A DNA stretch of 64,000 nucleotides from an uncultured Candidatus Saccharibacteria bacterium (GTDB lineage Bacteria; Patescibacteriota; Minisyncoccia; UBA6257; JACOXY01), in NCBI GenBank assembly GCA_964357615.1, contig CAYHMC010000001.1, forward strand, positions 2,602-66,601, given 5' to 3'. Position 1 is the stretch's first letter. Every line of letters begins with the position of its first letter. A model generated the notes under the pieces. It did not search any database and had not been told where the DNA came from. It was given only the letters and a program-made list of their open reading frames with translations. Made by a program: the position numbers and the translations under genes. Shown one piece after another: positions 8,460 through 64,000 of the stretch.

Positions 8460-8523
8460 TTGCATAGAGCATTTTGGCTAAAATTGGTTTTGACTTGAGC
8501 TATTTATATGTTATAAAAAATAT

Positions 8524-50379: not shown

Positions 50380-51624
50380 ATGAATAACAATACAAAAATA
50401 GCAGGAGTGGCAGCGGTAGCAATTGTTGCTGGAATAATTATTTTTTTGCAAAATTTTGATGCAGGAAAAGTTGCGTGCGAAGATATTGCAGAAGCCCGAG
50501 CCAGTTTGCAGTCAGCGTACGATACAGGAGTATCTGCGAGTGTAGAGGTATATGCAGACGAAAAAGCGGCGATAGATGAGCGTCTAAGTGAGTGTCTAAG
50601 CGCTAAGCCGATTGATCCTTGTGCTGATGCGCAAAAAACACGAGATGCAGCCGTAGAAGCTTTTAACGGAATTCCTTCACCGCCGGACAATGCACCGCAC
50701 TCGGAATTTCAAACATATTTTAAGAAGCGTGATGATGCCTATAACAACTATAAAAAAGCAAAAGACGCTTTAAGTGAGTGCCGTGCGGCAAATCCGCCAA
50801 AACCCGACGTACCATATGAAAAATCTGATGCTAAAGCTTGTTTTGACGCTTACGACGCTGGAGTTGAAACAATCAGGAATACATTCGAGACCAATACGCA
50901 GGCAATGAAGACAGCGCTAAAAGCGGCGCTTACAGCATTAGACGCACGAGAGAAAGCATGTAACCCCCCAACCGGAAAAGAAAAGTTCACGGAATCCATT
51001 GGTGGCGACACATCTGGTAATGGTGATTCATCACAAACAAGCGTTCCAACAGAGATTTTAAACTGCAGGCCCATTAATGAAAATTTGGATACAGAATTGC
51101 TTGCACTGCGCCAAAGGGCGGCAGCTATTCCTGGTGAGATTCAGGCAGTGCAAACTAGCATAGACAATATAAAAAAGCGAATGAGCCCATTACAGCGTGA
51201 TTTGGGGGAAGTTGATACATACATTCCACCCGAGAGTACAAAGACACAGTTTGAGGGTGCGCTAAACGCTCTTCGAGCAGAACGCAAGGTATCTATTGAA
51301 TCGGCCCTTGAATTTTATAAGAACCTACTTACAAGAAAAGAAGCAGAAAAAGCTAAGCTACAAGAAGAATTGAGTGATTTAGAGGTTAAAATTAGGGCAC
51401 GTCTTCTGCAAATAAGGAAAGAAAATGAGACGAGAGCAAGAAGCTTCCCAACCAATGTGCACCTCGCAAAGCCAGATAAATGTGAGTACTATCATTGCCA
51501 TGGAATGCTTTGTGGACGGCCGGATCCTGAGCAGGATGGTTGTGGTCATGGAGCAACTACCCAAGATGATGTTGATTGTAAGAAATTTATTGATTCGTAC
51601 CTAAAAGCTGCTGGAGCAAATTAA
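50380..51624 (+). CDS. Membrane-anchored coiled-coil protein with a Cys-rich C-terminus
   Basis: N-terminal TM helix, long Ala/Glu-rich helices, and a C-terminal CEYYHCHGMLCGRPDPEQDGCGHG. Confidence 0.4.
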   Translation: MNNNTKIAGVAAVAIVAGIIIFLQNFDAGKVACEDIAEARASLQSAYDTGVSASVEVYADEKAAIDERLSECLSAKPIDPCADAQKTRDAAVEAFNGIPSPPDNAPHSEFQTYFKKRDDAYNNYKKAKDALSECRAANPPKPDVPYEKSDAKACFDAYDAGVETIRNTFETNTQAMKTALKAALTALDAREKACNPPTGKEKFTESIGGDTSGNGDSSQTSVPTEILNCRPINENLDTELLALRQRAAAIPGEIQAVQTSIDNIKKRMSPLQRDLGEVDTYIPPESTKTQFEGALNALRAERKVSIESALEFYKNLLTRKEAEKAKLQEELSDLEVKIRARLLQIRKENETRARSFPTNVHLAKPDKCEYYHCHGMLCGRPDPEQDGCGHGATTQDDVDCKKFIDSYLKAAGAN

Positions 51625-51647
51625 AAACTGAATTGCAATTAAATCGT

Positions 51648-51684
51648 AAAAAAATAATACCCGACGGGTATTATTTTTTATTGT
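51648..51684. terminator. Bidirectional rho-independent terminator between 50380(+) and 51808(-)
   Basis: aaaaaataatacccgacgggtattattttttatt, a perfect stem. Confidence 0.65.
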
Positions 51685-51807
51685 TTGTACAGTCTTTTGT
51701 TTATTTTTTTTGTTCCATTAATGCTACTGAAATTTTTAGTTCTTTTCCTTGCCAATAGGCTGTATTTATGGCCATACTAATCGTGTTATTTATTGATTAA
51801 GTTATAT

Positions 51808-53274
51808 TTATTTTACTAATTTTTTGACTTCTAGGAGTAAGCGTTCGATTTCTTCAATTTTTCGATTAACTTGCGCTTTGCTATCTCCTTCTTTTATAGT
51901 TGGGATTAAACCTTTTGAAATAAATGATTTTAGTTCACTTTCGTTTTTCATATCTACTACTACATTTGTTCTTGTGTTTAGTAATACGGTTGAGGCAATG
52001 CCAGCGGCGTCGTGTGGAATTATCGAAAGGAGCCAATATAAATCATCACCAATTTTTATTGGTCTTGGCTCTGAGAGATTAAATATATTCCAGTCATAGG
52101 TCGGAAATTCTTTTTTAATATAATCTGCTGCCGCAATTGGTCCAGTGAGCTGAGATTTTGCATCATACTCAATTATTTCTCGCTTGCCAGTTGTGGCATC
52201 AAAAATAAAAATCTTGTAAATGCCATATGATTGGCCATAAGGCTCTGCTACTACAAGTTGTTTAAATCCTTCAGTTGTTGCTACATGAAAAATATTCTCA
52301 TCTCCCGGGAGACTTACGATTTCTGTTTGATTTTCATGTAAAAACCATTTATTTATAAGGCCACCCAAATACGCGTATGAATGCGAATAGAATTCTACAA
52401 TTTCTTTCGGATGAATTCTGTTACCCTTCAAATAGCTAATGTTGCTTGCTTCCTCTGGAGACAAATCATCAATTTTACCATCACCGTGAACAACCATCAC
52501 GCCAGCCCAATATGGTACTCGAAAAATAATTCCGCGATATGAAATGTAGGGCACAATAGTTACCCATTCCTTTTCATCATTTTTAATAAATATTGGTTCT
52601 TTGCTGTAACTGACAAAATATTTTTTAAGTGGAAGTTGAAAATAAATATTATCAAAAATTCCTATTCCGTCAGCATATTTAAATTCTGCGTTTTCAATGT
52701 CTACTTTTCTTTCTAGCGTATCAACATCAACCGTTACAAAGCCACTAAGTTTTTTTAGAAAATAAAGTATTCCACCATCTGGAAGTCTAGGGAATATGCG
52801 CTTAAGTTTGCCATCTACAAGAATAATTTGTGAATCACCTAGGTATTCTTGTGGATTCTGAAATGTGTCATCAGCATATCGTTTTGCCACTGCTTTTGGG
52901 GTGAGCCGTAGTGGTTCAAATTTAGGAACATCGGCACGCTTTTCATATTTGATATTGTTTGCGGTTATTGAAAAGAGAATTTCACTTTCAAGGCTCAAAA
53001 GCATAGATAGGGTTAGTAGTGCAATTACATACAACTTAGCCGAATTATTATTTCGAGGTGGAATTCTAAGCGTATAATTATTTTCTCCATTTTTTTCGAA
53101 AAATATTCCAATTTTAACAAAAAAACGCCAAATACTATAAAGAAGTGTTAAAATAAAAATAAAACGAAGTGGACTAGAAACTAACACCATTACAATTGGA
53201 TGAAAAAAAGGTCTAAGTAGCCAGCCCATAATAAATAGAGTAATAATTGGAATTAAAAATTTATATTTTTTCAT
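51808..53274 (-). CDS. Hypothetical membrane-anchored protein (488 aa)
   Basis: 2-3 N-terminal TM helices and a large extracytoplasmic domain; no family recognised. Confidence 0.4.
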   Translation of the reverse strand: MKKYKFLIPIITLFIMGWLLRPFFHPIVMVLVSSPLRFIFILTLLYSIWRFFVKIGIFFEKNGENNYTLRIPPRNNNSAKLYVIALLTLSMLLSLESEILFSITANNIKYEKRADVPKFEPLRLTPKAVAKRYADDTFQNPQEYLGDSQIILVDGKLKRIFPRLPDGGILYFLKKLSGFVTVDVDTLERKVDIENAEFKYADGIGIFDNIYFQLPLKKYFVSYSKEPIFIKNDEKEWVTIVPYISYRGIIFRVPYWAGVMVVHGDGKIDDLSPEEASNISYLKGNRIHPKEIVEFYSHSYAYLGGLINKWFLHENQTEIVSLPGDENIFHVATTEGFKQLVVAEPYGQSYGIYKIFIFDATTGKREIIEYDAKSQLTGPIAAADYIKKEFPTYDWNIFNLSEPRPIKIGDDLYWLLSIIPHDAAGIASTVLLNTRTNVVVDMKNESELKSFISKGLIPTIKEGDSKAQVNRKIEEIERLLLEVKKLVK

Positions 53275-53283
53275 AATAGTTTC

Positions 53284-54174
53284 TTAACCATTGTACGCTT
53301 CTTCTAGTTTTTTAATATCAAACTTTTTCATTTTAAGAAAAGCTTGAGTCACTTTTTCAATTTGTTCTTTGCTTCCGTTCGCCATCATATCATTCATTGC
53401 AGTTGGAACAATTTGCCAAGAGACGCCAAACTTGTCTTTCAACCAGCCACACTGTTCTGCTTCTGGTATTGCTGACAATTTGCCCCAATAGTTATCAATT
53501 TCTTCTTGGGTATCGCAGTTAATGATAAAAGATATCGCTTCATTAAAAACAAATTCATGCGGACCAGAACTATCCATTGCCATAAAGTTTTGACCAGCGA
53601 GTGTAAAGCGTGAGTGCTTAATAAATCCTTCTTTGTCACCTTCGCCAGCGGCATAGGGCACAGTCATTTCTATTTTTGAATCTGGAAAAATACTCGTATA
53701 CATATCCATTGCTTCTTTGGCTTTTCCTGCGTGTTCTTTTGTAAACATAAGCATGGGAGTAATTTTCTGGGTCATTTGATGATTATCGCTCCATGAAAGT
53801 TGCCATGTTAGGCCGTATTTATCTTGTAGCCAACCGTATTTTTTTGCCCATGGATAAGTATCGTATGGCATCAAGGCTTTACCGCCCTCAATTAGTTTAT
53901 TCCAAACGGTTTCAATATCTTTCTCGTTATCAAAAATCGTAAACATTGATATTGAAGGATTTATTTTAAAATATGGCCCTGCGCTAATAGCCATAAAATC
54001 TTGACTAGCAAGTTTAAAAGTTACAATGTCGCAGTCGCCGGACGGTGTGCCTGTGATTGTTTTTGTGTTAATAATTTTTGAATCAGAAAAAAGCGAAACA
54101 TAAAAAGCCGTAGCTTCCTTTGCTTCTTTATCAAACCAAAAATGAGTAAGTATTTTTTGTTTACCCTGAATCAT
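53284..54174 (-). CDS. Tandem PhnB-like / VOC-superfamily protein (two 3-demethylubiquinone-9 methyltransferase-like domains)
   Basis: Both halves carry ...FW.D.EA.EA..FY.S.F.DSKI...YGWLQDKYGLTWQL / CGWLKDKFGVSWQI. Confidence 0.7.
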   Translation of the reverse strand: MIQGKQKILTHFWFDKEAKEATAFYVSLFSDSKIINTKTITGTPSGDCDIVTFKLASQDFMAISAGPYFKINPSISMFTIFDNEKDIETVWNKLIEGGKALMPYDTYPWAKKYGWLQDKYGLTWQLSWSDNHQMTQKITPMLMFTKEHAGKAKEAMDMYTSIFPDSKIEMTVPYAAGEGDKEGFIKHSRFTLAGQNFMAMDSSGPHEFVFNEAISFIINCDTQEEIDNYWGKLSAIPEAEQCGWLKDKFGVSWQIVPTAMNDMMANGSKEQIEKVTQAFLKMKKFDIKKLEEAYNG

Positions 54175-54307
54175 ATTGAAGGGTTACCATGAATTTGTTG
54201 AATGGGCATATTAATATATTTTATTAATTTAATAATTAGTTTATCAAGAAATAAGTATATATACCACAAGCTATCCAAGGCTACACAAAATGGTATTATT
54301 AGTATAA

Positions 54308-54865
54308 ATGGCTAATTTTGAAATAAAACAATCTAATGAAGGCGACGATTCAAATCCAATAGAAAATAGAAACGAGGCTCTTGTGGTCCCTGAAAATATT
54401 ACAGATACTCCTCTCGAAGAAAAATCACCAGAAGAAAAATTGGTTACAGATGATTTTAGATTGGCTACAGAAGGCAAGTCTTTTGAAGAGGGGCGCGATG
54501 CTTTGTTTGAATTGTTGAATAAAATTGGGGAAATAAAAGGAAAAAGCGGATATTATACCGCGGAGCAGTTAAAAGATAGAATTAACAAAGTTTTTAGTGG
54601 CGAGCTTAATGTTGGCTCTATTACGCGCTTCGGTGATTTAAGGGGAGTGGTGGGGACACTTTTTGTAAAGAAACTTGAGGAAACCAGAATAGAAAAATTA
54701 AAAGAAGAAATTGTAGGAGAACCAAGTAATGTAGCGCAAAGAGAAGAAAGAATTTCCCCACAAGAATTATTTAAAGGAGAAGACGAAGCGCACGAAAGAG
54801 AACTATTAGAATTAAAGTCTAGGGAAAGGCCTTCATTATTAGAGCGCTTTAAAAAACTATTTTAA
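54308..54865 (+). CDS. Hypothetical acidic protein
   Basis: ORF only. Confidence 0.35.
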   Translation: MANFEIKQSNEGDDSNPIENRNEALVVPENITDTPLEEKSPEEKLVTDDFRLATEGKSFEEGRDALFELLNKIGEIKGKSGYYTAEQLKDRINKVFSGELNVGSITRFGDLRGVVGTLFVKKLEETRIEKLKEEIVGEPSNVAQREERISPQELFKGEDEAHERELLELKSRERPSLLERFKKLF

Positions 54866-55098
54866 GTTGGATTTAAGAAATTCTAAAGTTTTCGCCCAGG
54901 CGTCTTTTGTTTCGTTTGGTGCATAGTTTGCGCCAGATGGATTTGCAAAGGCATGACCAAAAATATATAAAGTTAAAGTTTTTTTATTCATAATTTATTT
55001 ATTATAACACAAAACCCACTAGCTTTATAAAAAACAAAGAGTTCGCTTTCGCAAACCCTTTGTAATAATAAAATCTATTTAGAATTTAACACACTTTA

Positions 55099-56217
55099 TT
55101 ATGGCTTTGTCTTGAAAGTTACAATACTTCCACGAACAACACCATATTCATTTTGTGCTGCAACTCGATAGAAATATTTAGTGTCTTTTTTCAAGCCTGT
55201 AATTTCTAGTGATACTTTTGTATTTCCATCATTCGCATCAAGCGAGTCGGTAGGGGATTCGGTACCAATAATTATTGTAAGAAGTGCGTCTGTTCCGTAT
55301 TCAAACCAATATGTGGTTGGTGCACCATTTGGATTAACCCGGCCATTAACCTTGGTTGATGTAGATGAAATGTTTGTAGCTGCATCGGTGCTTACTATTG
55401 GTTGATCTGGTGCCGGCGGTCCTTTGGTAGTAAAGCTTAAAACTGATCCTACTACTGTACCGTATTGGTTTTGTGCATTAAGCCGGAAGTAATATTTCGT
55501 AAGGGGTCTAAGATTAGTTAGTGGTATCGAAACATTAGTTGCAGTATTTCCATCACCTACTGATCTAAGCTCTGTCACGTTTCCAAAATTTGCAGTCTTG
55601 TCATATTCAAACCAATATGTGGTTAGTGATCCGCGAGGATTTACTTGGCCATTCACATCTGCACTGTTGCGTTCAACTTCAGTTGCGGCATTAGTACGTG
55701 CTGTTGGCACTGTTGCTTGTGGTGGGGGATTGTTATTGGTTTTAAAGCTATAGGTTGCTCCGTTTACTGTGCTGTACTGATTTTTTGCACTTAAACGAAA
55801 ATAATAAGTTACATTTGCTTTAAGGCCGGTAATGTATCCTGGTGCCGGAATTGAAATAAATCCGGAACCTAAAACCTGAGTGGCGGTGCGAGTGCCAAGA
55901 GCCGTGCTTTCTCCATATTCATACCAGTATTCTGTCGAGGCTCCACTTGGAGTTACACGACCGGTCACAACCGCAGTAGAGTTTGATGGAGTTGCTTTTG
56001 AATCGGTTTCTACTTTGGGTGCTTCTGCTATTGGTGGTGGAGGCGGTATTTTTGTTGACGGCGAAAGAATTGTAGTTTCTGGTGAAGTTGACGTTTCTGG
56101 TAATGGAGAAACCCGCAGTGTTTCATCAATGGGCATCATTCCATTATTCATGTAAACAAATAGTAATGCCAGAATGGCAACTACTATGACTGAACTATAA
56201 ATTAAATTTTTATTCAT
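55099..56217 (-). CDS. Secreted protein with three Fn3-like repeats
   Basis: Signal peptide and three ~95-aa repeats, each with T(E/T)YW(Y/F)EYG...YYFR...N(Q/E)YG.V.G...FKT. Confidence 0.6.
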   Translation of the reverse strand: MNKNLIYSSVIVVAILALLFVYMNNGMMPIDETLRVSPLPETSTSPETTILSPSTKIPPPPPIAEAPKVETDSKATPSNSTAVVTGRVTPSGASTEYWYEYGESTALGTRTATQVLGSGFISIPAPGYITGLKANVTYYFRLSAKNQYSTVNGATYSFKTNNNPPPQATVPTARTNAATEVERNSADVNGQVNPRGSLTTYWFEYDKTANFGNVTELRSVGDGNTATNVSIPLTNLRPLTKYYFRLNAQNQYGTVVGSVLSFTTKGPPAPDQPIVSTDAATNISSTSTKVNGRVNPNGAPTTYWFEYGTDALLTIIIGTESPTDSLDANDGNTKVSLEITGLKKDTKYFYRVAAQNEYGVVRGSIVTFKTKP

Positions 56218-56269
56218 ATTTTTTTGTAATTAATTATATTTTTCCGACCTTTTATTTCTGATTCTGAAT

Positions 56270-57619
56270 TTATTGTAAACGTGCTCTGGTAATTGGACCA
56301 AAATATCCTGTTGTTGGAATTCCATAAGCCTTTTGATATTCAATAAGAGCAGTTTTTGTTAAAGAGCCAAAATACCCGGTTGCACCGGACTTTGAAAGTA
56401 GAATTGCGGCCGGACCCCTATTTGCTTTTATGAGTAATTCTTGAAGCAATTTAACATCATTGCCTTCTGCTCCGATTTCAAGATCGCGATTTAATGAAGT
56501 TGAAGTAGTTGTACTGCTTACTGTAGAATTCAGAATACTTGTATTCAATTTTATTGACCCATTGGTTAAGAGATAAATAAAATGTTCTCTGGTTAGTGGT
56601 CCAAAATTTCCACTTGAAGGGACAATAACAACCGCAGTTTGATATTCAGCCAATGCTGATTTTGTTAGTGACCCAAAATATCCGGTTATTCCTGTTCTAG
56701 TTAATAATCTGCCGTAAGGGCCAACGGCAGTTTTAATTAAAAATTCTTGCAATAATTTTACGTTTGTTCCCGAAGAGCCAAAAGGCATTTCTTTTTTAAG
56801 AAGTGCAATTTGCCCAACCACTTTAGCTTCTTCAAAAACTTTTAAAATCATAGACGGCAAGGCGATATTAGATTTTTGTGCCTCAAGAAAAAGATTTTTT
56901 TCCTCAATAATTAATTTTTGTGCTAAAGCATGCGCATCATCAGAGCCATTCAAAATTCTATTCAAAGAGTCAATTTTTTCGGCAAGAGAGAATTCTAAAG
57001 TAAGACGCGGAAATGGGTTTATGGCTGTGCCTCTAGCATAAATGCCAAAGTGCAAATGAGTTGGTCCACCAGCTGCGTTTCCGGTGTTGCCAACATAACC
57101 GATAAGATCGCCGGTTTTTAGAATCTGTCCGGATTGTATGTTTTTAGGAATGGCATCAAGATGAGCGTAGTAATATCTTTCTCCTCCCGCAGTATAAGTG
57201 TATACATAATTACCACCATTGCTTCCATATCCAGTTCTACCTACAACTGCGTCTACAGGAGAAACTATAAATGCTCCGCGTGGGGATAAGATGTCTGTTC
57301 CTTCGTGAGTTCTGCCGTTTGCGCGCGCATCTCCCCAAGTATCATAAATATCTCTTAACGATACATTTAGTAATATTGGAATACGAATGTTTGAAGCTGG
57401 GCTACTGCCAAGAGAATTCATTTTATTTCTTAAGTCGTTATTTATCTGGAAACTAGAAGAATTTCTCTCTTCGTCCGGATTTGGCGGAGTAACAGGTGTT
57501 GGGGTGTTTGATTGGGCATTGGTTTTTATATAACCAAAAAAAGCCAGCAATATTAGAAATATAGCTAAAAATTGATAGACCATGAATTTAGGTCTTTTTT
57601 CAAAAAAACGTATAAGCAT
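56270..57619 (-). CDS. M23-family metallopeptidase (LytM/lysostaphin-like) with two C-terminal PG_binding_1 domains
   Basis: GRTHEGTDI (HxxxD), ...YYAHLD... and GPTHLHFGIY (HxH). Two repeats of G..G.NVKLLQE.LIK.....LL...G.TGYFGSLTK.AL.EYQ follow. Confidence 0.85.
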   Translation of the reverse strand: MLIRFFEKRPKFMVYQFLAIFLILLAFFGYIKTNAQSNTPTPVTPPNPDEERNSSSFQINNDLRNKMNSLGSSPASNIRIPILLNVSLRDIYDTWGDARANGRTHEGTDILSPRGAFIVSPVDAVVGRTGYGSNGGNYVYTYTAGGERYYYAHLDAIPKNIQSGQILKTGDLIGYVGNTGNAAGGPTHLHFGIYARGTAINPFPRLTLEFSLAEKIDSLNRILNGSDDAHALAQKLIIEEKNLFLEAQKSNIALPSMILKVFEEAKVVGQIALLKKEMPFGSSGTNVKLLQEFLIKTAVGPYGRLLTRTGITGYFGSLTKSALAEYQTAVVIVPSSGNFGPLTREHFIYLLTNGSIKLNTSILNSTVSSTTTSTSLNRDLEIGAEGNDVKLLQELLIKANRGPAAILLSKSGATGYFGSLTKTALIEYQKAYGIPTTGYFGPITRARLQ

Positions 57620-57705
57620 ATCTTATTATGTATAATATATGACGAAACAAATCATATTATATGACATAAGCCCTAATGAGAGTTTTTGTCCTGCTATTAC
57701 TTAAG

Positions 57706-58419
57706 TTAATATCCTGTAAATTCCTCGCTTCTTATATCGTTATCGTTTATGCCGGCATCACTTAAAACTTTTCTCATGGCAAAAACCATAACTGCTGGAC
57801 CAGACATGTAATAAATTGGAGAATTTAAATCTGGAAGATATTTCATAAGCATTTCTTTATTAATGTATCCGGTCTCACCGCTCCACGATTCTTTAGAATC
57901 TTCCATATTGGTCATTGTGGCAATCAATTTAAAGTTTTTATTTTTTTCTTCAAGTTCTTTTAATTCTGTTAGAAATACAGCATCTTCTGGGCGACGATTT
58001 GAATAAAAAAGAAAAAGTTTATGTGGTAAATTACGAATTGTTGCGTCCACTATCATTGACCTAATTGGTGTAACACCAACTCCACCAATAAGAAATACTG
58101 CGGGTCGTGAAGTATTATTTTGAAGTGTAAAATCGCCAAACGGACCTTCCAAAGTTAGGGGATTACCATCTGGTAATTTCTGTAGCACTCGCTTAAAAGC
58201 CGTATCTCTTAGTCTTGTTGTAATTTTGAGATAGTCTTCTTCTGGTGCGCTTGAAAGCGAATAAGCTCTTTTATTTCCTTCCGCATCTGTCTCTGGTGGG
58301 TTAATAAGAAAAAGATCAATCGATTGACCTGCTTTATAAATAAATCCTTCTGGTTTTTTTAAATAAACAGAAAGCGTTCCTTCTGCTTCCATTTCTTTTT
58401 TAATAATTTGTGTATCCAT
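57706..58419 (-). CDS. Ferredoxin-NADP reductase-like FAD/NAD(P)-binding oxidoreductase
   Basis: RAYSLSS (RxYS FAD motif), GGVGVTPIRSMI (NAD(P) GGxGxxP) and YMSGP. Confidence 0.7.
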   Translation of the reverse strand: MDTQIIKKEMEAEGTLSVYLKKPEGFIYKAGQSIDLFLINPPETDAEGNKRAYSLSSAPEEDYLKITTRLRDTAFKRVLQKLPDGNPLTLEGPFGDFTLQNNTSRPAVFLIGGVGVTPIRSMIVDATIRNLPHKLFLFYSNRRPEDAVFLTELKELEEKNKNFKLIATMTNMEDSKESWSGETGYINKEMLMKYLPDLNSPIYYMSGPAVMVFAMRKVLSDAGINDNDIRSEEFTGY

Positions 58420-58471
58420 ATTTTAGATTAATTTTAATTATTATACCCTAAAAAATAACATCGCAAGGGTG

Positions 58472-60271
58472 TTATTTTTTAGTTAATACCTTTTCTAAAA
58501 ACTCAACAACTTTAGGATATGCATCTAATCTATTTTTTAATTTTGAAAGACCATGGCCTTCATCTAGGTAAATTAATAGCTCCACAGCTTTACCATGTTC
58601 TTTAAGTTTAGTTTCAATTTGCTCGGCTTCCGAGAGTGGAACTCGTGGATCATTTGCCCCATGTATTACTAAAAGTGGAGCTTTAATTTTATCTAATGAA
58701 TTAATTGGCGAGATTGATTTAAGAAACTCTCTATTTTTTTCTAATGATCCATATTCAGCTTCTCTATTTGCTCTGCGATATGGGGCAGTATTCTCTAGGA
58801 ATGTAATAAAGTTGGCTACTCCAACTATATCTACTCCAGCGGCCCAAAAATCGGGATAAAATGCCATACATGCCAAAACCATAAAGCCACCATAACTGCC
58901 ACCCATCGCAACTAATTTATTTCCGTCTACTTCTGGAATATTTTTTAAATATTCACTTAATGCAACAATATCCTTAACCGAATCCATTCTTTTTTCTACA
59001 TTGTCTAGTGCCATATATGTTTTTCCATATCCTGAACTTCCGCGAATATTAGGCGCTACAACAATATATCCAGCATAAACAAAATATTGTGTAAGAAGAG
59101 CTAAGCTGGGTTTATATTGTGATTCTGGGCCTCCATGAATATTTATTATTGTTGGTAATTTTTTGTGAGCTTCTATATTTTTAGGTTTATAAATAAAGGC
59201 GGGGATTTCTAAACCATCAAAAGATTTAAAGTGAAAGAGCTCTGGTTCTACTAGAATATCTTGTGGCACTCCTTGGGGCGTATCCGTTAGTTGCTCTGTC
59301 TTCCCGGTTTCCATATCGGCGATAAAGATATTTGTTGTTCTCTTAGAGTCGCCCAAACCAAAAGTCATATATTTACCATTCGCAGAGAAACTTAAACCTT
59401 CGATTTCGCCAGATGGCAGATTGTATGGAATTGGTTTTAAAGTGTAAGGTTCATAAATTGTTAGCTTGTTATATCCATCTTCATTAATTGCTATACCAAA
59501 ATATTTCCCACCGCGATGCATGGCTAATCCAATAATGTCCCAGTTTGGTTTTATAACATATTCAAATTTCTTAGTATTCAATGAATATTTAGCAAGACTT
59601 TCGAATTCCAAATCATAATTTGTTGCGATATAAAACGAAGATTCATCCGGTAGCCAGCGTGGAGCTCCATAAGAAACATTGTTATCGTGAGGGGTAATGT
59701 GTTCAGTTTCGTTGGTCTCCAAATTAAATAAGTAGAGGTCATTATTTTCGTTTGAATAAAATCTGCTTATTGCAAGATATTTACCGCTTGGAGAAAAACC
59801 AGCTGAGCTACAAGAATCACCTAAATCGAAAACACACCGCTTTTCCTTGGTTTTAAGATTCATTATGTAAACATCAAAGTCTTTGCCGTTTCTTTCATTA
59901 GAAGCATAGGAAATAAATTTACCATCATAAGAAAACGAACCAAGCTGATATTTTACTTCTGGTTTATTAGTCAGTTCTGTAATTTCTTTGGTATTTGAAT
60001 CAATTAAATAAATTTGATTTTTTTCACTACCGCCCTCTGACTTCGAAAACGCGATTAAGTTTTCTCTAGGCGAAAAAATCATGCCCTCTATAAAATCAGG
60101 AAAATCTGTAAGCTGAGTTGCATCACCGCCATCTATAGACATTAAATAAATCTGAGTTGTACCAGTTAGATTAGATAAGTATGCAATTTTAGATGCATCT
60201 GGGCTAAACCTTGAGCCAAAAGATGTCTTAACTTTCAAGAAATCAGCTATTGTATATTTGTTGTTTTCCAT
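58472..60271 (-). CDS. S9-family serine peptidase (prolyl oligopeptidase/acylaminoacyl-peptidase-like) with an N-terminal beta-propeller
   Basis: N-terminal TolB-like propeller repeats. The C-terminal region has AMGGSYGGFMV (GxSxG) and ...IHGANDPRVP...H, giving the catalytic triad. Confidence 0.88.
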   Translation of the reverse strand: MENNKYTIADFLKVKTSFGSRFSPDASKIAYLSNLTGTTQIYLMSIDGGDATQLTDFPDFIEGMIFSPRENLIAFSKSEGGSEKNQIYLIDSNTKEITELTNKPEVKYQLGSFSYDGKFISYASNERNGKDFDVYIMNLKTKEKRCVFDLGDSCSSAGFSPSGKYLAISRFYSNENNDLYLFNLETNETEHITPHDNNVSYGAPRWLPDESSFYIATNYDLEFESLAKYSLNTKKFEYVIKPNWDIIGLAMHRGGKYFGIAINEDGYNKLTIYEPYTLKPIPYNLPSGEIEGLSFSANGKYMTFGLGDSKRTTNIFIADMETGKTEQLTDTPQGVPQDILVEPELFHFKSFDGLEIPAFIYKPKNIEAHKKLPTIINIHGGPESQYKPSLALLTQYFVYAGYIVVAPNIRGSSGYGKTYMALDNVEKRMDSVKDIVALSEYLKNIPEVDGNKLVAMGGSYGGFMVLACMAFYPDFWAAGVDIVGVANFITFLENTAPYRRANREAEYGSLEKNREFLKSISPINSLDKIKAPLLVIHGANDPRVPLSEAEQIETKLKEHGKAVELLIYLDEGHGLSKLKNRLDAYPKVVEFLEKVLTKK

Positions 60272-60335
60272 TTTATTTTAGTTCCTAGAATCATATCTGA
60301 AATAAATAACACCGCAATAGCGTGGCTACACTTTT

Positions 60336-60803
60336 TTATTTAGTTTTTTTGAGGCGTTTAGGGAGATGTTTATTTTGCCACTTGCGTTCGCGGTCGTGTT
60401 TGGCTATCCCTACGGCTTTTAGGGCATACATTGCAGCTCCAGGGGCATGAGTTGCAACATGTGCTACTGCAACTGCTTGGCCTGCAGAGCGTGCTGAAAA
60501 TCGTGCTGGGCTATCTTCTTTCGCACTTCGTGCCGCCGCATGAGCATCAAGTGAGGCTTTGCGGATTACTGCCATTTTAAAAATTCCAGTTCTTGCCCAT
60601 TTGCGACATGCTTTGATTGCTTCACGAGGGCGTTTATCTTTGGGAAATTCTTTTTCAAAATAGTGCAAAACATGCTCTGCGCAATCTGCAGCCCAAAGAG
60701 CCAATAACTTTTGGTCATCTTTAGTTACTTTTTTTAAATTGATTAAATTTAATTCAACTTCTTTTTTGAGGGTTATCAAAGAAATTGGACTAGAGTTTTG
60801 CAT
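60336..60803 (-). CDS. Hypothetical alpha-helical protein with an Ala-rich C-terminal half; locally GC-rich
   Basis: ...WAADCAEHVLHYF...AAARSAKEDSPARFSARSAGQAVAVAHVATHAPGAAMYALKAV. GC is ~50% across 60390-60590 against a ~30% background. Confidence 0.4.
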   Translation of the reverse strand: MQNSSPISLITLKKEVELNLINLKKVTKDDQKLLALWAADCAEHVLHYFEKEFPKDKRPREAIKACRKWARTGIFKMAVIRKASLDAHAAARSAKEDSPARFSARSAGQAVAVAHVATHAPGAAMYALKAVGIAKHDRERKWQNKHLPKRLKKTK

Positions 60804-60834
60804 TTACTAAGGTTAAAATATTATTTGTGGCCAA

Positions 60835-61455
60835 TCAATTTTTAATCTCAGAATTTTCTAAGAGGGAGAGCGCTAAGCTACTCATCGCTAAATATTGATA
60901 TGCTCTAATGGGATCATTAATTCTTGAGTCGGAAGTGTGACTTTTTTCATTTCTAAACATGTCAATAGCCATAGTAAGGAATTTGACTGCTTGATTAAAA
61001 TCTCCATCAACATTAGAAGCAGAAGCTCCTTTTATGTGTAACTTTCCTTTTCCAAAAGCTTCTGAACCTGTTTCATACCCAGTTAATTCTCGCAACTTAT
61101 CTCTTACGATTTTAAAACTTTTTTCTACGGCTTCGGCATATTCTTTCGACAAATATAAGGAGGTGCACTTTTCCTTTATCAGTGGGTGTATGTGAGAAAA
61201 TTCTTTTTCTATTGTTTTTGTATCTTTTTTTATGTGATTGGTTCTTTGTATATATTCATATAAACCTGCTTTCTTACGCCTTGTGAGAAACTTTTTTGCA
61301 CGCAACAATGCAACACCCATCTGCATTGAATTGAAATTGTTACCCCATGATTCCAGTTTTTTCAAAATTGCAGATGAGGTCCGCCAATTTCTAAAGAAGC
61401 CATCTTGCCAAAGAATCTTTAAACCATCGGATGAATTTTCTACAGATTTTTTCAT
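60835..61455 (-). CDS. HEPN-like protein (TIGR02391-type) with a C-terminal Rx4H motif
   Basis: ...NQAVKFLTMAIDMFRNEKSHTSDSRI... The R-x4-H sits in a helical C-terminal region. The gene overlaps the upstream gene by 1 nt. Confidence 0.5.
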   Translation of the reverse strand: MKKSVENSSDGLKILWQDGFFRNWRTSSAILKKLESWGNNFNSMQMGVALLRAKKFLTRRKKAGLYEYIQRTNHIKKDTKTIEKEFSHIHPLIKEKCTSLYLSKEYAEAVEKSFKIVRDKLRELTGYETGSEAFGKGKLHIKGASASNVDGDFNQAVKFLTMAIDMFRNEKSHTSDSRINDPIRAYQYLAMSSLALSLLENSEIKN

Positions 61456-61862
61456 TATTTACTTAATTCGTTTTCTACATATTGTTCTCCGGTAGATGTC
61501 AGAACCCATGACTTTTTTCCATTTTTCTTTTCTTCCGTTTCCATCATATGCGCATTTTTTATATTCATATTAACCTTATCGTTTATGTTGGCAGGTGCGG
61601 GATATTTAGCTGCAATAAAACCCTTCTTTAGATCATCTGCATTAACAGATTCAGTTTTTTCTACATGTTCTAAAAAGTAAGCAATTGCTACTGTTCGCTT
61701 TACGTCATCATTAATTTTTTTACCTAACAAAAATTCTTTAATAGACATTTTCTTTTTAGAATCTAAAACAATGCTGTCAAATGGTCCAGGTGATTTTATT
61801 TGTTCTAATTTATTAACTCTATCCTCCAAAGATGAGATTCTTTTTTCAATATGTTCATTCAT
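61455..61862 (-). CDS. Hypothetical protein (N-terminal coiled coil, possibly a C-terminal winged-helix-like region), translationally coupled to the HEPN-like gene
   Basis: 135 aa; ...GKKSWVLTSTGEQYVENEL at the C-terminus. It is 2 nt from the upstream gene. Confidence 0.4.
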   Translation of the reverse strand: MNEHIEKRISSLEDRVNKLEQIKSPGPFDSIVLDSKKKMSIKEFLLGKKINDDVKRTVAIAYFLEHVEKTESVNADDLKKGFIAAKYPAPANINDKVNMNIKNAHMMETEEKKNGKKSWVLTSTGEQYVENELSK

Positions 61863-61864
61863 AA

Positions 61865-62248
61865 TTATTTTTTAAAACGAGCGATTACTTGTGAAAGTTT
61901 ATAGTTTGGTAGATAGTAACGACTATTTTCTGACTTTATATCTTTTGACTCGAGAAGATTTTTTAGGGTTATTTTTACACTTCCCTCAGGGGCAATTTCC
62001 ATTTTTATTATTTCTGAAGGCGTTATTCTGTCTTCTGTGCCGAGTATTAGACTTCTAGCTTTTATTCCAGCTAGGACAAGAAGAATTCTTTCAGCGTTGG
62101 GAAGTTCCCAAAAGCCACCTGAAAACTCAAGAGTCTTCGATTCTTTATTTATTAATAGGTAAGGTTTTAAAAGATCAGCCAAGCCAACTTTGTCTATTGT
62201 TTGGGATTCGCTTACTAGTAAACTTGCCAATGGATCTTGATTGTTCAT
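61865..62248 (-). CDS. Hypothetical protein, first gene of a 3-gene coupled module
   Basis: 127 aa; no recognisable motif. Confidence 0.4.
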   Translation of the reverse strand: MNNQDPLASLLVSESQTIDKVGLADLLKPYLLINKESKTLEFSGGFWELPNAERILLVLAGIKARSLILGTEDRITPSEIIKMEIAPEGSVKITLKNLLESKDIKSENSRYYLPNYKLSQVIARFKK

Positions 62249-62547
62249 AATTGTAGTTTATAAATTACTTATAATAACTACTATTATAAACTATTCAAAT
62301 TAAAATGCAAGAGAAAGTGAAGTTTTTGGAGTATTATTTAGTCTATTATTTTAGTAATTTTTAAACTAGTCTAAATTTATCCTTATTTTAAAGCTTATTT
62401 CCTCATAATAAGAAAATATTTTTGTCGTGAATAAAAACTAATATATGCAATACATACTTATATTTATCCATATGAAAATGTTCCTTGCATTTTATACAGA
62501 ATAACTTGGTGATTGAAAGTTGTATTAAAAGGTGAAATAATTAAAAA

Positions 62548-62745
62548 ATGATAAGTTCCATTAGTCCAAAAGACGAATTAAATAAAAGTTTGGTGCGCAG
62601 AGACGACTCAGAAGAATTCAAAAAAGAAATGAAAAAACGAGAGAGTGATTATGCTAAGGACCTCGATTCTCTTAGTTTAGATTCCAAGAAAGACAAAAAA
62701 TTATCTGGACAAAAATCTCTAAAGCAAAAAAAAGACCGCAGATAA
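62548..62745 (+). CDS. Small charged ORF; probably the N-terminal exon-like part of the downstream DGQHR gene, separated by an apparent frameshift at an A8 tract
   Basis: ATG with an upstream AGGTGA. It ends 3 codons after an A8 run at 62726-62733. The +1 frame is open from 62723 to the window end. Confidence 0.35.
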   Translation: MISSISPKDELNKSLVRRDDSEEFKKEMKKRESDYAKDLDSLSLDSKKDKKLSGQKSLKQKKDRR

Positions 62746-64000
62746 AGCTTTTGAAGACAGGGTTTGGCTCTTGTTCGCCAATCTTGGAGCATCATTTTTA
62801 AACAAAGAAAATTCGAAATTATTCTTAGATATAAAAAAGACAAAACAAATTGATGTTATTGCTAAAATTGATGATCTAATTTTTGTTGTTGAGTGTAAAT
62901 ATTCAGAAAAAAAATCTAGATCACTAAGAAAAGATTTAGCTGAAACATCTAAATTAAGACGCCCAATAACAGAACTTTTTATAAATAATTGGCCAGAGGC
63001 AAGAGTAATTTTTGTTTATGCTCTTGAAAAAATAGAATTATCAGAATCTGATGAAAGAGACGCTTCAAATTACGGCATAAAGGTTTGGGATTCAAGCATA
63101 ATTTCTTATTTTGAAGATTTGGAAAATAGATTAGGTGACGCCGCAAAGTATCAAGTTTTTGCAGAATCACTTGAAGACGAGGAAATTGGTTCTTATTCGC
63201 CCAGAGTTCCTGCGATAAAGAGTGATTTTAACGGAGTTCCATTTTATTATTTTCTCGCACGACCAGAATCCTTGTTAAAAATAGCATATATTTTTCATAG
63301 GAAATTAAGAATTGGAGATCAGCACGAAAATCCATATCAAAGAATGGTAAACAAAAGAAGAATTGAGGACATTAGAAACTTCGTGGCTTCTAAGGGCTAT
63401 TTTTCAAATAATGTGATTGCAAACTTCAAACAATCACCAAAATTTAATAAAACTGATATTATAGAGGGTATTGAATACGGTGTTTTGACACTTCCAATTT
63501 TTTATCAGTCATTATGGATTATAGACGGACAGCATCGCTTATTTGGTTATTCAAATACAGGCGAAGCTAAAGACCACCTTATTCCAGTTCTTGCATTTCA
63601 GGGTCTTAATGAGGAAAAACAAGGCAAATTATTTATTGATATAAATTACAATCAAAAAAGTGTTGATCAAAATTTATTATGGGATTTGTATAGTGATATA
63701 TACTATCAAAGCAGAGATCCTGAAGAAAGACTGCTCTATGTGATAAGCATGATAGGTAAGAAACTAAATTCTAATAAAAGTTCTCCATTTTTTAACTACG
63801 TTTATATTCCAAGCATGAATGAATCTGGTCCGGGCGTAAATATTAAACTTACAACTTTTGGCGTACGGCTACAAAAGGGCAGTTTCTTAAAGGGGCAGAA
63901 AGATTTATTTAAAGAAAATAATGAGAATACTATAGATTTTGCTACAAAAAGAATAATCGAATATTTTAATATACTCAAAAGCTTTAACTCTAAAGATTGG
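62723..64000 (+). CDS. DGQHR-domain (DndB/DpdB-like, ParB-fold) protein with an N-terminal PD-(D/E)xK-like region. It is 3-prime partial (open to the window end) and is not in the supplied ORF track.
   Basis: 426 codons with no stop. The motif IIDGQHRLFGYS (63524-63538 encodes DGQHR) is followed by KLFIDINYNQK, a DndB-like FxDxN motif. Upstream, IDVIAKIDDLIFVVECKYSEK gives a D...ExK pattern. There is no in-frame ATG for ~200 codons, so the start is either TTG at ~62771 or an upstream ATG at 62548 reached via a frameshift. Confidence 0.6.

What the first reader, a model, noticed from the sequence alone, without database searches (positions are those of the whole stretch)
60336..64000. Putative defence islet: a HEPN-containing coupled gene module divergent from a PD-(D/E)xK + DGQHR (DndB/DpdB-like) gene
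The last 3.7 kb differs in character from the housekeeping genes upstream. On the minus strand, three small genes of 127, 135 and 206 aa are translationally coupled, with gaps of 2 nt and -1 nt. The distal gene carries a C-terminal HEPN-type Rx4H motif. A fourth ORF follows with GC content far above background.

A 300-bp AT-rich intergenic region separates these from a divergent long ORF. That ORF combines a restriction-endonuclease-like D...ExK segment with a DGQHR ParB-fold domain. The DGQHR domain is the hallmark of DndB and DpdB, which are tied to phosphorothioate and 7-deazaguanine DNA-modification and defence systems. The ORF continues beyond the window.

HEPN RNase modules next to DNA-modification or nuclease-like genes are typical of phage-defence islands. 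I do not recognise this particular combination, with two unknown partner proteins, as a named system.
Basis: partly seen in the sequence, partly recalled or inferred. Interest (0 to 1): 0.8.

Follow-up and report, generated by a model that had tools for sequence, protein, structure and literature searches.

The report
Modular winged-helix/HEPN module beside broken nuclease
The end of this window holds a three-gene operon (two small winged-helix proteins plus an RNase-type HEPN effector) from an unnamed family found in many uncultured bacteria and archaea with interchangeable nuclease effectors, and it sits next to an unrelated orphan immunity gene and an unrelated, frameshift-broken multi-nuclease gene.

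Summary
However, the region holds three unrelated elements, not one system.

1. **Genes A (127 aa), B (135 aa) and C (206 aa).** These form a translationally coupled operon.
   - A and B are winged-helix (wHTH) proteins with no Pfam, NCBIfam or PADLOC family.
   - C is a small N-terminal adaptor domain plus a Ymh-type HEPN domain carrying the motif RNEKSH.
   - The A-B pair recurs in 68 other loci across Patescibacteria, Proteobacteria, Chloroflexota and archaea.
   - The downstream effector varies: PLD-like (18 loci), an unknown 'E2' family (27), other (8), and Ymh-HEPN (this window only).
   - In at least 4 loci the module sits inside a type I R-M operon.
   - Fused proteins exist: A+B, B+Ymh-HEPN, and HEPN-like+B.
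   - Best reading: an unnamed effector-swapping abortive-infection or toxin-antitoxin-like module.

2. **ORF D.** This is an orphan Imm5-like immunity gene found next to A-B nowhere else.

3. **The DGQHR gene.** It belongs to a roughly 750-aa family with PD-ExK, DGQHR and Swt1-like HEPN domains.
   - It is not DndB or DpdB.
   - No dnd or dpd partner genes lie beyond the window, which continues into an ABC transporter.
   - In this window the gene is split by a net 32-nt deletion.

Nothing here has been tested for function.

The parts
61865..62248 (-). Gene A (127 aa). A small N-terminal alpha/beta element followed by a winged helix-turn-helix. First gene of the conserved module.
   Evidence: - ORF.
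- No Pfam, NCBIfam, PADLOC or PHROG family.
- 49 homologues of 127-133 aa.
- Sits directly upstream of B in 52 of 69 loci.
61455..61862 (-). Gene B (135 aa). N-terminal helix (residues 2-23), a disordered linker, then a MarR/PadR/HrcA-like wHTH. The most conserved gene of the module.
   Evidence: - ORF.
- 46 close homologues.
- A profile search gives 702 cluster representatives at E<=1e-10, nearly all 130-150 aa.
- Fused to A in P0300, and to a Ymh-HEPN domain in P0336.
60835..61455 (-). Gene C (206 aa). An adaptor N-terminal domain (residues 1-85, window 61201-61455) plus a Ymh-family HEPN domain (residues 88-201, window 60853-61194), with RNEKSH at 60937-60954. Predicted RNase effector.
   Evidence: - Pfam PF09509 at 9.3e-14 and TIGR02391 at 2.8e-21.
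- The N-terminal domain is shared with the third genes of L007, L009, L011, L025, L031 and L051. Their C-terminal domains differ.
- The HEPN part is 60-82% identical to about 48 metagenomic proteins that have other N-termini.
60336..60803 (-). ORF D (155 aa). An Imm5-like immunity-type protein. It is adjacent to the A-B-C module but not part of it. GC is 0.42, rising to 0.50 in the 3' half.
   Evidence: - Pfam PF21805 at 4e-43.
- Absent from all other A-B loci and from all Ymh-cassette loci.
- GC values.
62249..62547 (.). A 299-bp AT-rich (GC 0.20) divergent intergenic region. Presumed to hold promoters for both gene sets.
   Evidence: - GC.
- Promoter-like sites are no more frequent than in shuffled sequence (10 against 9.4±3.3).
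- A 16-nt inverted repeat lies at 62254-62269 / 62353-62368.
62548..62745 (+). A 65-aa ORF that is the detached N-terminal segment of the DGQHR-family gene.
   Evidence: It aligns with the N-termini of full-length 745-760-aa homologues, for example P0097 at 85% identity. It is called as a separate gene in three assemblies.
62726..62745 (+). Frameshift zone: an A8 run followed by the stop codon of the 65-aa ORF. The window lacks 22 + 10 = 32 nt relative to intact relatives.
   Evidence: DNA alignment with L158 and L159. Sequence.
62732..64000 (+). Main reading frame of the PD-(D/E)xK + DGQHR (+ C-terminal Swt1-like HEPN, beyond the window) gene.
- It is open from 62732, and the called start is TTG at 62771.
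- Motifs: FEDRVW at 62750-62767 (upstream of any start codon), QIDVIAK at 62846-62866, ECK at 62891-62899, DGQHR at 63524-63538.
- It continues to 669 aa in L001.
   Evidence: - Sequence and ORF.
- TIGR03187 match at 2.7e-38.
- Invariant columns E70, D71, W74, D103, E116, C117, DGQHR 327-331, and near-invariant R708 and H713.

Best explanation
The 3.7-kb tail is a small cluster of three independent conflict-type elements.

**(1) Genes A, B and C.** These are one operon of an unnamed modular family.
- A and B are small winged-helix proteins that act together. This is shown by conserved adjacency and by A+B fusion proteins.
- C is the effector. Its N-terminal adaptor domain ties it to the module, and its Ymh-family HEPN domain is a predicted metal-independent RNase.
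- *Inferred mechanism:* A and B bind nucleic acid and/or the effector and keep C silent. An invasion or stress signal then frees or activates C, which cuts cellular RNA and arrests growth. This is abortive-infection or toxin-antitoxin logic.
- Across the family the effector is exchanged while A-B stays constant. The alternatives are PLD-like, 'E2', DUF4145-HEPN and Ymh-HEPN.

**(2) ORF D.** This is an orphan Imm5-like immunity gene.

**(3) The divergent gene.** It is a split copy, probably inactivated or N-terminally crippled, of a roughly 750-aa single-protein nuclease family.
- The family carries PD-ExK, a ParB-like DGQHR domain and a Swt1-like HEPN domain.
- Elsewhere it pairs with a Dam-like methyltransferase or stands alone.
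- It is not DndB or DpdB.
For: **Shown**
- Operon structure and coupling.
- Ymh/HEPN membership with the Rx4H motif (PMC3710099).
- wHTH folds for A and B.
- A-B conservation in 68 other loci from many phyla. B-family size.
- Variable effectors:
  - E1 matches the MITD1 PLD-like domain at E 0.0017, and PADLOC PDC-S05 at 1e-10.
  - DUF4145 in L038.
  - E2 is an unknown family with conserved 'RNNRxVxH'.
- Embedding between hsdM and hsdS/hsdR in L010, L011, L030 and L052.
- Rosetta-stone fusions: P0300 = A+B, P0336 = B + Hypoth_Ymh (2.4e-33), P0261 = HEPN-like + B.
- The E2 C-terminal domain is probably A-like (hhalign 86%, E 4.7e-6).
- ORF D and the DGQHR gene are independent of the module.
- The DGQHR gene is split, and the 65-aa ORF aligns to homologue N-termini.
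- No dnd or dpd neighbours. A Dam-like MTase is adjacent in 7 related loci.

**Supporting context**
- A PDC-S05 representative reduced plating of T7 and T5 about 1000-fold (bioRxiv 10.1101/2024.09.26.614923).

**Inferred only**
- Inhibition and release of C by A and B.
- The trigger.
- RNA as the target.
Against: - There is no experimental or structural evidence for an A-B-C complex.
- PADLOC has no model for A, B or C, so a defence role rests on context alone.
- Only 4-6 of 69 loci are R-M-embedded, and many neighbours are housekeeping genes.
- The exact N-terminal-domain + Ymh combination is seen only in this groundwater population.
- wHTH folds are generic, so A and B could simply be autorepressors.
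- Gene calls in related loci are my own simple ORF calls and home-made HMMs.
- The split DGQHR gene might still yield a partly functional 669-aa product from the TTG start.
Confidence: 0.55

Rival explanations
1. A classical tripartite type II toxin-antitoxin addiction module. C is the toxin. A and/or B are DNA-binding antitoxins or autorepressors that neutralise C by direct binding. The module has no dedicated anti-phage sensing role and mainly stabilises the mobile DNA that carries it.
For: - Tight translational coupling and small gene sizes.
- wHTH folds typical of antitoxins and regulators.
- Association with IS elements, serine recombinases and composite-transposon-like flanks.
- HEPN domains are common TA toxins (PMC3710099).
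Against: - Two conserved wHTH partners plus extra A-like, B-like and X accessory genes are more than a simple TA pair needs.
- The module is embedded inside type I R-M operons at the position typical of Abi or anticodon-nuclease genes.
- It is absent from 72,556 plasmids.
- This reading overlaps with the best explanation, and the present data cannot separate the two.
Confidence: 0.28
2. The HEPN trio and the PD-(D/E)xK + DGQHR gene are parts of one defence system related to the Dnd/Dpd DNA-modification systems.
For: - Divergent arrangement around a shared 299-bp intergenic region.
- DGQHR domain present.
- ParB-like + HEPN associations are known in general (PMC3632139).
Against: - No co-occurrence in 68 A-B loci, nor in 5 loci fetched by encoding contig and 7 full-length viral loci of the DGQHR family.
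- DndB and DpdB equivalog scores are far below cut-off.
- No dnd or dpd genes in the 5.5-kb extension.
- The DGQHR gene is frameshifted while the trio is intact.
Confidence: 0.04
3. A and B are ordinary transcription factors, or DNA-partition or centromere-binding proteins like TubR/AspA, of an integrated element. C is an RNA-processing enzyme. There is no conflict function.
For: - Many loci lie among housekeeping genes, for example after rpoD in Afipia L061.
Against: - No partition NTPase is linked.
- The third gene is swapped among nuclease or toxin-type domains while A-B stays constant.
- Patchy cross-domain distribution.
- R-M embedding.
- Fusion of B directly to HEPN domains.
Confidence: 0.08

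Closest known systems
Ymh-family (PF09509/TIGR02391) HEPN proteins of R-M-linked and Abi-type systems, as catalogued by Anantharaman et al. 2013 (PMC3710099)
   Same: - C's C-terminal domain is a bona fide member, scoring above both curated cut-offs and carrying the Rx4H motif.
- Family members are described as solo proteins or as fusions to variable N-terminal domains, and as lying in operons with R-M. This matches the cassette-like behaviour seen here.
   Different: - The described fusion partners are paraMORC, AbiJ-NTD1/2 and AbiTii.
- Here the N-terminal domain is a different ~85-aa domain shared with other effectors of A-B modules.
- The protein also depends genomically on two wHTH genes that are not described there.
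R-M-embedded suicide RNases such as PrrC (EcoprrI) and RloC
   Same: - The position between the hsd genes of type I R-M operons in L010, L011, L030 and L052.
- A HEPN-type RNase effector, with the presumed logic of a latent RNase.
   Different: - PrrC and RloC are single ABC-ATPase-HEPN proteins regulated by the R-M complex.
- This module has no ATPase and brings its own two wHTH partners.
- Most of its copies, including this window, are not next to R-M genes.
HEPN-MNT and other type II TA pairs; AbiE (wHTH antitoxin AbiEi + NTase toxin)
   Same: Small, translationally coupled operon that pairs a wHTH protein or proteins with a toxin-type enzyme.
   Different: - No MNT or nucleotidyltransferase is present.
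- There are two (sometimes three or four) distinct wHTH-type accessory genes.
- The effector is exchanged among unrelated folds.
PADLOC candidate PDC-S05
   Same: The PLD-like C-terminal domain of the E1 effector variant matches PDC-S05 models at 1e-10. A PDC-S05 gene gave phage resistance in E. coli.
   Different: - PDC-S05 is a single-gene candidate, and the tested example carries a RhuM domain.
- The window's own effector is HEPN, not PLD-like.
- A, B and C have no PADLOC hit.
DndB / DpdB and DUF262/GmrSD-type ParB-like defence nucleases (for the divergent gene)
   Same: - A ParB-fold DGQHR domain (TIGR03187).
- Fusion of ParB-like domains to PD-(D/E)xK and HEPN domains has been noted in comparative genomics (PMC3632139; PMC3710099, ParB + Swt1-like HEPN 'Saro_3948').
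   Different: - It fails the DndB and DpdB equivalog thresholds.
- It has no dnd or dpd neighbours.
- The three-nuclease-domain, ~750-aa architecture is linked elsewhere to a Dam-like MTase or a radical-SAM gene, or stands alone.
- The copy in this window is split by a 32-nt deletion.

Membership tests
HEPN superfamily, Ymh family (PF09509 / TIGR02391) - gene C | Profile match above the curated cut-off | tested here: met
   Pfam 51.8 bits against 25, and NCBIfam 75.9 bits against 39.45, covering residues 88-201.
HEPN superfamily, Ymh family - gene C | Conserved Rx4-6H catalytic motif | tested here: met
   RNEKSH at residues 168-173. The motif is conserved in close cassette homologues.
HEPN superfamily, Ymh family - gene C | Alpha-helical HEPN fold and RNase activity | not tested
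DndB (TIGR03233) / DpdB (NF041060) - divergent gene | Equivalog HMM score at or above the curated cut-off | tested here: not met
   DndB 19.7 against 328, DpdB 68 against 300, DGQHR_dnd_1 64.5 against 450.
DndB / DpdB - divergent gene | Genomic linkage to dndACDE or dpdA/dpdC-K genes | tested here: not met
   - The 5.5-kb extension holds ABC_tran, FtsX, EamA and GSDH genes.
- Related loci show MTase, radical-SAM or housekeeping neighbours only.
DGQHR domain family (TIGR03187, ParB-like) - divergent gene | Domain model above cut-off and an invariant DGQHR motif | tested here: met
   132.3 bits against 58.85. D327-G-Q-H-R331 is invariant in 16 sequences.
PD-(D/E)xK nuclease fold - divergent gene, N-terminal region | Conserved E...D...(D/E)xK residues in the expected order, and a recognisable fold | tested here: inconclusive
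   - E70, D71, D103 and E116 are invariant or nearly so; the following K118 is K in most sequences but R in P0179 and P0214.
- Pfam hits are only weak (NERD 0.041, Hjc 0.25).
- There is no PDB sequence hit and no structure model.
HEPN_Swt1 (PF18731) - divergent gene, C-terminus (beyond the window) | Profile match and the Rx4H motif | tested here: inconclusive
   - RKRIKH is present, and R708 and H713 are near-invariant.
- PF18731 is precomputed for at least 12 homologues.
- There is no Pfam hit at E<=1 on the window's own protein.
Imm5-like immunity proteins (PF21805) - ORF D | Profile match above cut-off | tested here: met
   146.8 bits against 25.
Polymorphic toxin-immunity pair - ORF D | An adjacent cognate toxin gene (deaminase or CdiA-CT type, per PMC3482391) | tested here: not met
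   The neighbours are the HEPN gene C and an S9 peptidase. D never accompanies Ymh cassettes or A-B modules elsewhere.
Any named or candidate system in PADLOC-DB v2.0.0 - genes A, B, C | HMM hit to a system component | tested here: not met
   No family at E<=1 for A, B, C or D. Later database releases and DefenseFinder could not be run.
Type II toxin-antitoxin / abortive-infection module - genes A-B-C | Toxic effector neutralised by co-encoded partner(s), released on a trigger | not testable with these tools
   Context only: coupling, effector swapping, R-M embedding and fusions.

The most novel reading that the evidence does not exclude
The A-B winged-helix pair, with optional A-like, B-like, X and adaptor-domain accessories, would be the constant sensor/scaffold of a new, widespread defence-system family.
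- The family has about 700 clusters at E<=1e-10.
- It plugs in interchangeable nucleases: Ymh-HEPN, DUF4145-HEPN, PLD-like and the unknown E2 and E3 domains.
- It is especially common in Patescibacteria and also occurs in archaea. These are small-genome lineages in which few defence systems are recognised.
- The three wHTH units (A, B and the effector's adaptor domain) may assemble in trans into a nucleic-acid-reading head that gates the nuclease.
Probability: 0.35. Interest if true: 0.75.

Novelty: new variant of a known kind. Interest (0 to 1): 0.58.

Why it matters
**The A-B-effector family**
- If it is a real defence or addiction system, it adds a compact, ATPase-free architecture of two winged-helix partners plus a swappable nuclease.
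- The B component alone has hundreds of sequence clusters and no family name in Pfam, NCBIfam or PADLOC.
- It is concentrated in ultra-small uncultured bacteria, whose immune repertoire is poorly known.
- The natural fusions (A+B, B+HEPN) and the effector swaps give clear, testable hypotheses about who binds whom.

**The DGQHR result**
- It is a useful correction. The gene is not evidence of Dnd/Dpd-type DNA modification in this genome, and it is broken.
- Its intact relatives are often adjacent to a Dam-like methylase or a radical-SAM gene, and may themselves be an uncharacterised restriction-type family.

Tried and rejected
**Searches that found nothing**
- Pfam, NCBIfam, PADLOC and PHROGs on A and B gave no family.
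- Sequence-profile searches of the PDB gave nothing significant for A, B, E2, the C N-terminal domain and the DGQHR family.
- tblastn of B against 72,556 plasmids and 50,697 phage records gave no match. Only 1 of 2.9 million viral contigs carries a B relative.
- Rfam and tRNA scans of the whole window found nothing.
- Promoter-like sites in the region are no more frequent than in shuffles (10 against 9.4±3.3), and no terminator-like site was found.

**Ideas tested and rejected**
- *ORF D (Imm5-like) is the cognate immunity protein of the Ymh-HEPN.* Rejected: D is absent from about 48 loci with a near-identical HEPN cassette and from all other A-B loci.
- *A and B are paralogues.* Not supported (hhalign probability 0.2%).
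- *All effector adaptor domains are homologous.* Not supported, except that the E2 C-terminal domain resembles A.
- *The A8 run is a programmed slippage site or a sequencing error.* Rejected in favour of a real lesion. Intact relatives carry 32 more nucleotides there, and three assemblies share the split.
- *The window's DGQHR gene lost a partner MTase that survives elsewhere in the window.* No MTase or radical-SAM homologue is present in the 64 kb. The closest intact relatives are also solo, so 'orphaned restriction gene' remains only a possibility.

**Not achieved**
- The NCBI 143-kb contig and the organism name could not be retrieved.
- A HEPN identity for E2 could not be established.

Full report
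**1. Checking the observation**

The minus strand carries four ORFs: 61865-62248 (A, 127 aa), 61455-61862 (B, 135 aa), 60835-61455 (C, 206 aa) and 60336-60803 (D, 155 aa).
- The A/B junction is TAA-TT-ATG, a 2-nt gap.
- The B/C junction is TAATG, a 1-nt overlap.
- C contains RNEKSH (Rx4H) at residues 168-173.

The intergenic region 62249-62547 is 299 bp with GC 0.20.

ORF D has GC 0.42, rising to 0.50 in its 3' half. The window mean is 0.341 (sd 0.037). D is in the top 3.7% of equal-sized windows but below the window maximum of 0.464. It is elevated, not extreme.

On the plus strand a long frame carries QIDVIAK...ECK and DGQHR and runs off the window.

All the stated features are therefore present.

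**2. Extending the sequence**

An ENA groundwater contig (Hainich well H41, 0.1-µm fraction, going by its record name) is the reverse complement of window 50835-64000. It has 2 mismatches and extends 5.5 kb further (L001).
- The DGQHR gene is called there as 669 aa.
- Beyond it lie a convergent ABC-transporter ATPase, a MacB/FtsX permease, a 247-aa unknown, EamA and a glucose/sorbosone dehydrogenase fragment.
- There are no dnd, dpd, TGT-like, helicase or ATPase partner genes.

**3. The A-B-C operon**

*C.* It matches Hypoth_Ymh (PF09509, 9.3e-14, 51.8 bits against 25) and TIGR02391 (2.8e-21, 75.9 bits against 39.45) over residues 88-201. Anantharaman et al. list Ymh as a HEPN family with a conserved Rx4-6H motif. 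They describe it as solo or fused to variable N-terminal domains, and found in R-M operons (PMC3710099).

*A and B.* Neither has a hit in Pfam, NCBIfam or PADLOC, and PHROGs gave only two marginal hits for B.
- AlphaFold2 on family alignments gives confident models.
- Profile comparison gives no evidence that A and B are paralogues.

**4. The module elsewhere**

*Family sizes.*
- B has 46 close homologues, all about 135 aa.
- A has 49, all 127-133 aa.
- A B-family profile against 1.84 billion representatives finds 1800 proteins at E<=1e-3, 702 at <=1e-10 and 137 at <=1e-30. Almost all are 130-150 aa.

*Distribution.* Scanning one genome per GTDB species with the B alignment returned 67 loci.
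- About half are Patescibacteria (Saccharibacteria, Parcubacteria and others).
- About 17 are Proteobacteria, including the cultured Afipia sp. Root123D2.
- The rest include Chloroflexota, Nitrospirota, Planctomycetes, Acidobacteria, Bacteroidota and four archaea (Bathyarchaeia, Woesearchaeota, Nitrosopumilaceae and one unclassified).

*Gene order.* I used my own ORF calling, blastp clustering and HMMs. A sits directly upstream of B in 52 of 69 non-redundant loci.

*Downstream effector.* What follows B varies:

| Effector class | Loci | Notes |
|---|---|---|
| E2 (~250 aa) | 27 | No Pfam or PDB relative. Invariant R88, H109, D119, W129 and E133, and a 'DFRNNRxVxH' motif. HEPN-like but unproven. 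Its C-terminal domain is probably A-like (hhalign 86%, E 4.7e-6). |
| E1 (~260 aa) | 18 | N-terminal PadR-like wHTH plus a PLD-like domain. Profile against PDB MITD1 4a5z gives E 0.0017. HDR...G.S...K is invariant. PADLOC PDC-S05 hits at 1e-10. |
| C-type N-terminal domain + a different C-terminal domain ('LRKILEK...KFLGDTSAHN') | 8 | No Pfam hit. |
| C-type N-terminal domain + Ymh-HEPN | 1 | This window only. |
| Other or unrecognised | 15 | L038 has a DUF4145 (HEPN-clan) protein. |

Extra B-like, A-like, adaptor-only or ~190-aa 'X' genes are often inserted.

**5. Origin of C**

A metagenome scan with C found about 48 loci encoding a HEPN domain 60-82% identical to C residues 86-206. Those domains sit on proteins of 150-460 aa with unrelated N-termini, and none has A, B or Imm5-like neighbours. 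Only the same Hainich population carries the full C. C is therefore a chimera of the module-specific adaptor domain and a mobile, highly conserved Ymh cassette. This is what effector exchange would produce.

**6. Evidence that the parts work together and in conflict**

*Fusion proteins.*
- P0300 is A (my HMM, 6e-15) followed by B.
- P0336 is the B winged helix followed by Hypoth_Ymh (Pfam 2.4e-33).
- P0261 is an N-terminal domain with 'RNAAEH' followed by B.

*Genomic context.*
- In L010 the order is hsdM - A - B - C - hsdS - hsdR, and L011, L030 and L052 also carry all three hsd gene clusters around the module. The hsd genes carry N6_Mtase/HsdM_N, Methylase_S and ResIII/EcoEI_R_C domains respectively. 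Six loci have hsdS nearby.
- Other recurrent neighbours are serine recombinases (7 loci) and N6_N4 methylases (8 loci).
- In L003 the module lies between inverted IS copies.

*Absence from mobile-element collections.* The family is absent from the plasmid and phage collections and nearly absent from viral contigs.

*Indirect experimental link.* A PDC-S05 gene lowered T7 and T5 plating about 1000-fold in E. coli (bioRxiv 10.1101/2024.09.26.614923). This bears only on the E1 effector domain.

**7. Mechanism**

*Shown:* a conserved A-B pair, an exchangeable nuclease-type third component, an intact catalytic motif in C, and physical linkage in some relatives.

*Inferred:* A and B, which are nucleic-acid-binding winged helices, form a complex with the effector through its adaptor domain and keep it inactive. 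B has a helix suited to oligomerisation. A trigger such as foreign nucleic acid or loss of A/B then releases the HEPN RNase, and RNA cleavage stops growth.

Whether this is abortive infection or plain toxin-antitoxin addiction cannot be decided from sequence. I put about 0.55 on the sensor/scaffold-plus-RNase defence reading and about 0.28 on a pure TA reading.

**8. ORF D**

D matches Imm5_like (PF21805, 4e-43). Imm5 proteins are immunity proteins for DYW-deaminase and CdiA-CT toxins and often occur without a toxin gene (PMC3482391). D occurs next to no other A-B module or Ymh cassette. With its raised GC, it is best read as an independently acquired orphan immunity gene.

**9. The DGQHR gene**

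*Family membership.*
- It belongs to the DGQHR domain family (TIGR03187, 132 bits against 58.85).
- It fails the DpdB (68 against 300), DndB (19.7 against 328) and DGQHR_dnd_1 (64.5 against 450) thresholds.

*The split.*
- A search with a conceptual fusion of the 65-aa ORF (62548-62745) and the main frame returned 283 proteins. Full-length homologues are 745-760 aa and cover 97-100% of the fused query.
- In the alignment the 65-aa ORF matches their N-termini.
- Invariant or near-invariant positions are:
  - E70, D71 and W74 ('FEDRVW')
  - D103 and E116-C117 (the following K118 is K in most sequences, R in two)
  - DGQHR 327-331
  - R708 and H713 (Rx4H)
- At least 12 homologues carry a precomputed HEPN_Swt1 (PF18731) hit. 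Some also carry EVE, Mrr_N or AlbA_2 domains.
- DNA alignment with two intact relatives shows the window lacks 22 + 10 = 32 nt in the Lys-rich linker around an A8 run at 62726-62733. The gene is therefore frameshifted.
- There is no start codon between the stop at 62729-62731 and the TTG at 62771. Any product of the main frame would lack E70, D71 and W74.
- Three assemblies share the split.

*Context elsewhere.*
- A Dam-like MethyltransfD12 gene is directly adjacent in L126, L129, L130 and L132-L135.
- A homologous B12-binding-like radical-SAM gene is adjacent in L127 and in L128/L131.
- The closest intact relatives (P0097, and the EVE-fused P0099) are solo among housekeeping genes.
- No MTase homologue exists in the window.
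- Fusions of ParB-like DGQHR/DUF262 domains with PD-(D/E)xK and HEPN domains have already been noted (PMC3632139; PMC3710099).

This gene is a damaged member of a known kind of predicted restriction or suicide nuclease. It is unrelated to the A-B-C module.

**10. Verdict**

The interesting part is the A-B-effector family.
- It is unnamed in the libraries I could query.
- It is sizeable, modular and enriched in ultra-small bacteria.
- Its domains and logic are of known kinds, so I rate it a new variant of a known kind, with interest about 0.6.

*Caveats.*
- There are no experiments.
- The related-locus gene calls and effector classes rest on my own simple ORF calling and HMMs.
- E2 and the adaptor domain lack fold assignments.
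- Newer defence databases could not be checked.

Noticed in passing
L020:3094-5013 (-): A 640-aa protein combines LexA_DNA_bind, Peptidase_S24 and N6_N4 DNA methylase domains in one polypeptide. It lies next to an A-B module. A LexA-like self-cleaving repressor fused to a methyltransferase is unusual.
   Followed up: no
L126, L129, L130, L132-L135 (about 5200-5970 or 8130-8970); L127:9376-10422; L128:9297-10526 (= L131): Full-length relatives of the DGQHR-REase-HEPN protein have a Dam-like MethyltransfD12 gene directly adjacent in 7 loci. In 2 distinct loci (L127 and L128, the latter also recovered as L131) a homologous radical-SAM (CxxxCxxC, B12-binding-like) gene is adjacent. This suggests uncharacterised two-gene restriction or modification systems.
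   Followed up: partly
L076-L120 (match regions listed): The Ymh-HEPN domain of gene C is 60-82% identical across about 48 metagenome loci. In those loci it is attached to unrelated N-terminal regions (proteins of 150-460 aa). It behaves as a very conserved, cassette-like toxin domain.
   Followed up: partly
L003:5226-11966: The A-B-E1 module plus a Y1 transposase gene lies between two inverted copies of a 167-aa + rve-integrase gene pair. The arrangement resembles a composite transposon.
   Followed up: no
L016, L023, L035, L036, L039, L040 (between B and E2); L053, L056 (upstream of B); P0368: A further conserved ~190-aa accessory family ('X', with C-terminal 'GWTLTxPGLK') accompanies E2-type modules, several of which lack gene A. 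P0368 looks like B fused to X.
   Followed up: partly
window 62254-62269 and 62353-62368: A 16-nt inverted repeat (94% complementary, 83 nt apart) lies immediately upstream of gene A. It could be an operator for the winged-helix proteins, or chance in AT-rich DNA.
   Followed up: no
window 55200-56100: This stretch has GC 0.41-0.46, as high as or higher than ORF D. It lies within a 372-aa fn3/PhoD_N-like gene. ORF D's GC is therefore not unique in the window.
   Followed up: no
window 1-64000: No tRNA, tmRNA or Rfam family at gathering threshold anywhere in the 64 kb.
   Followed up: yes
L159:7001-9820 (P0099): A 76%-identical relative of the DGQHR protein carries an extra N-terminal EVE (modified-base reader) domain. 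It sits right after rpoB/rpoC. Other relatives carry Mrr_N or AlbA_2 domains. This hints at modification-dependent targeting in part of the family.
   Followed up: no
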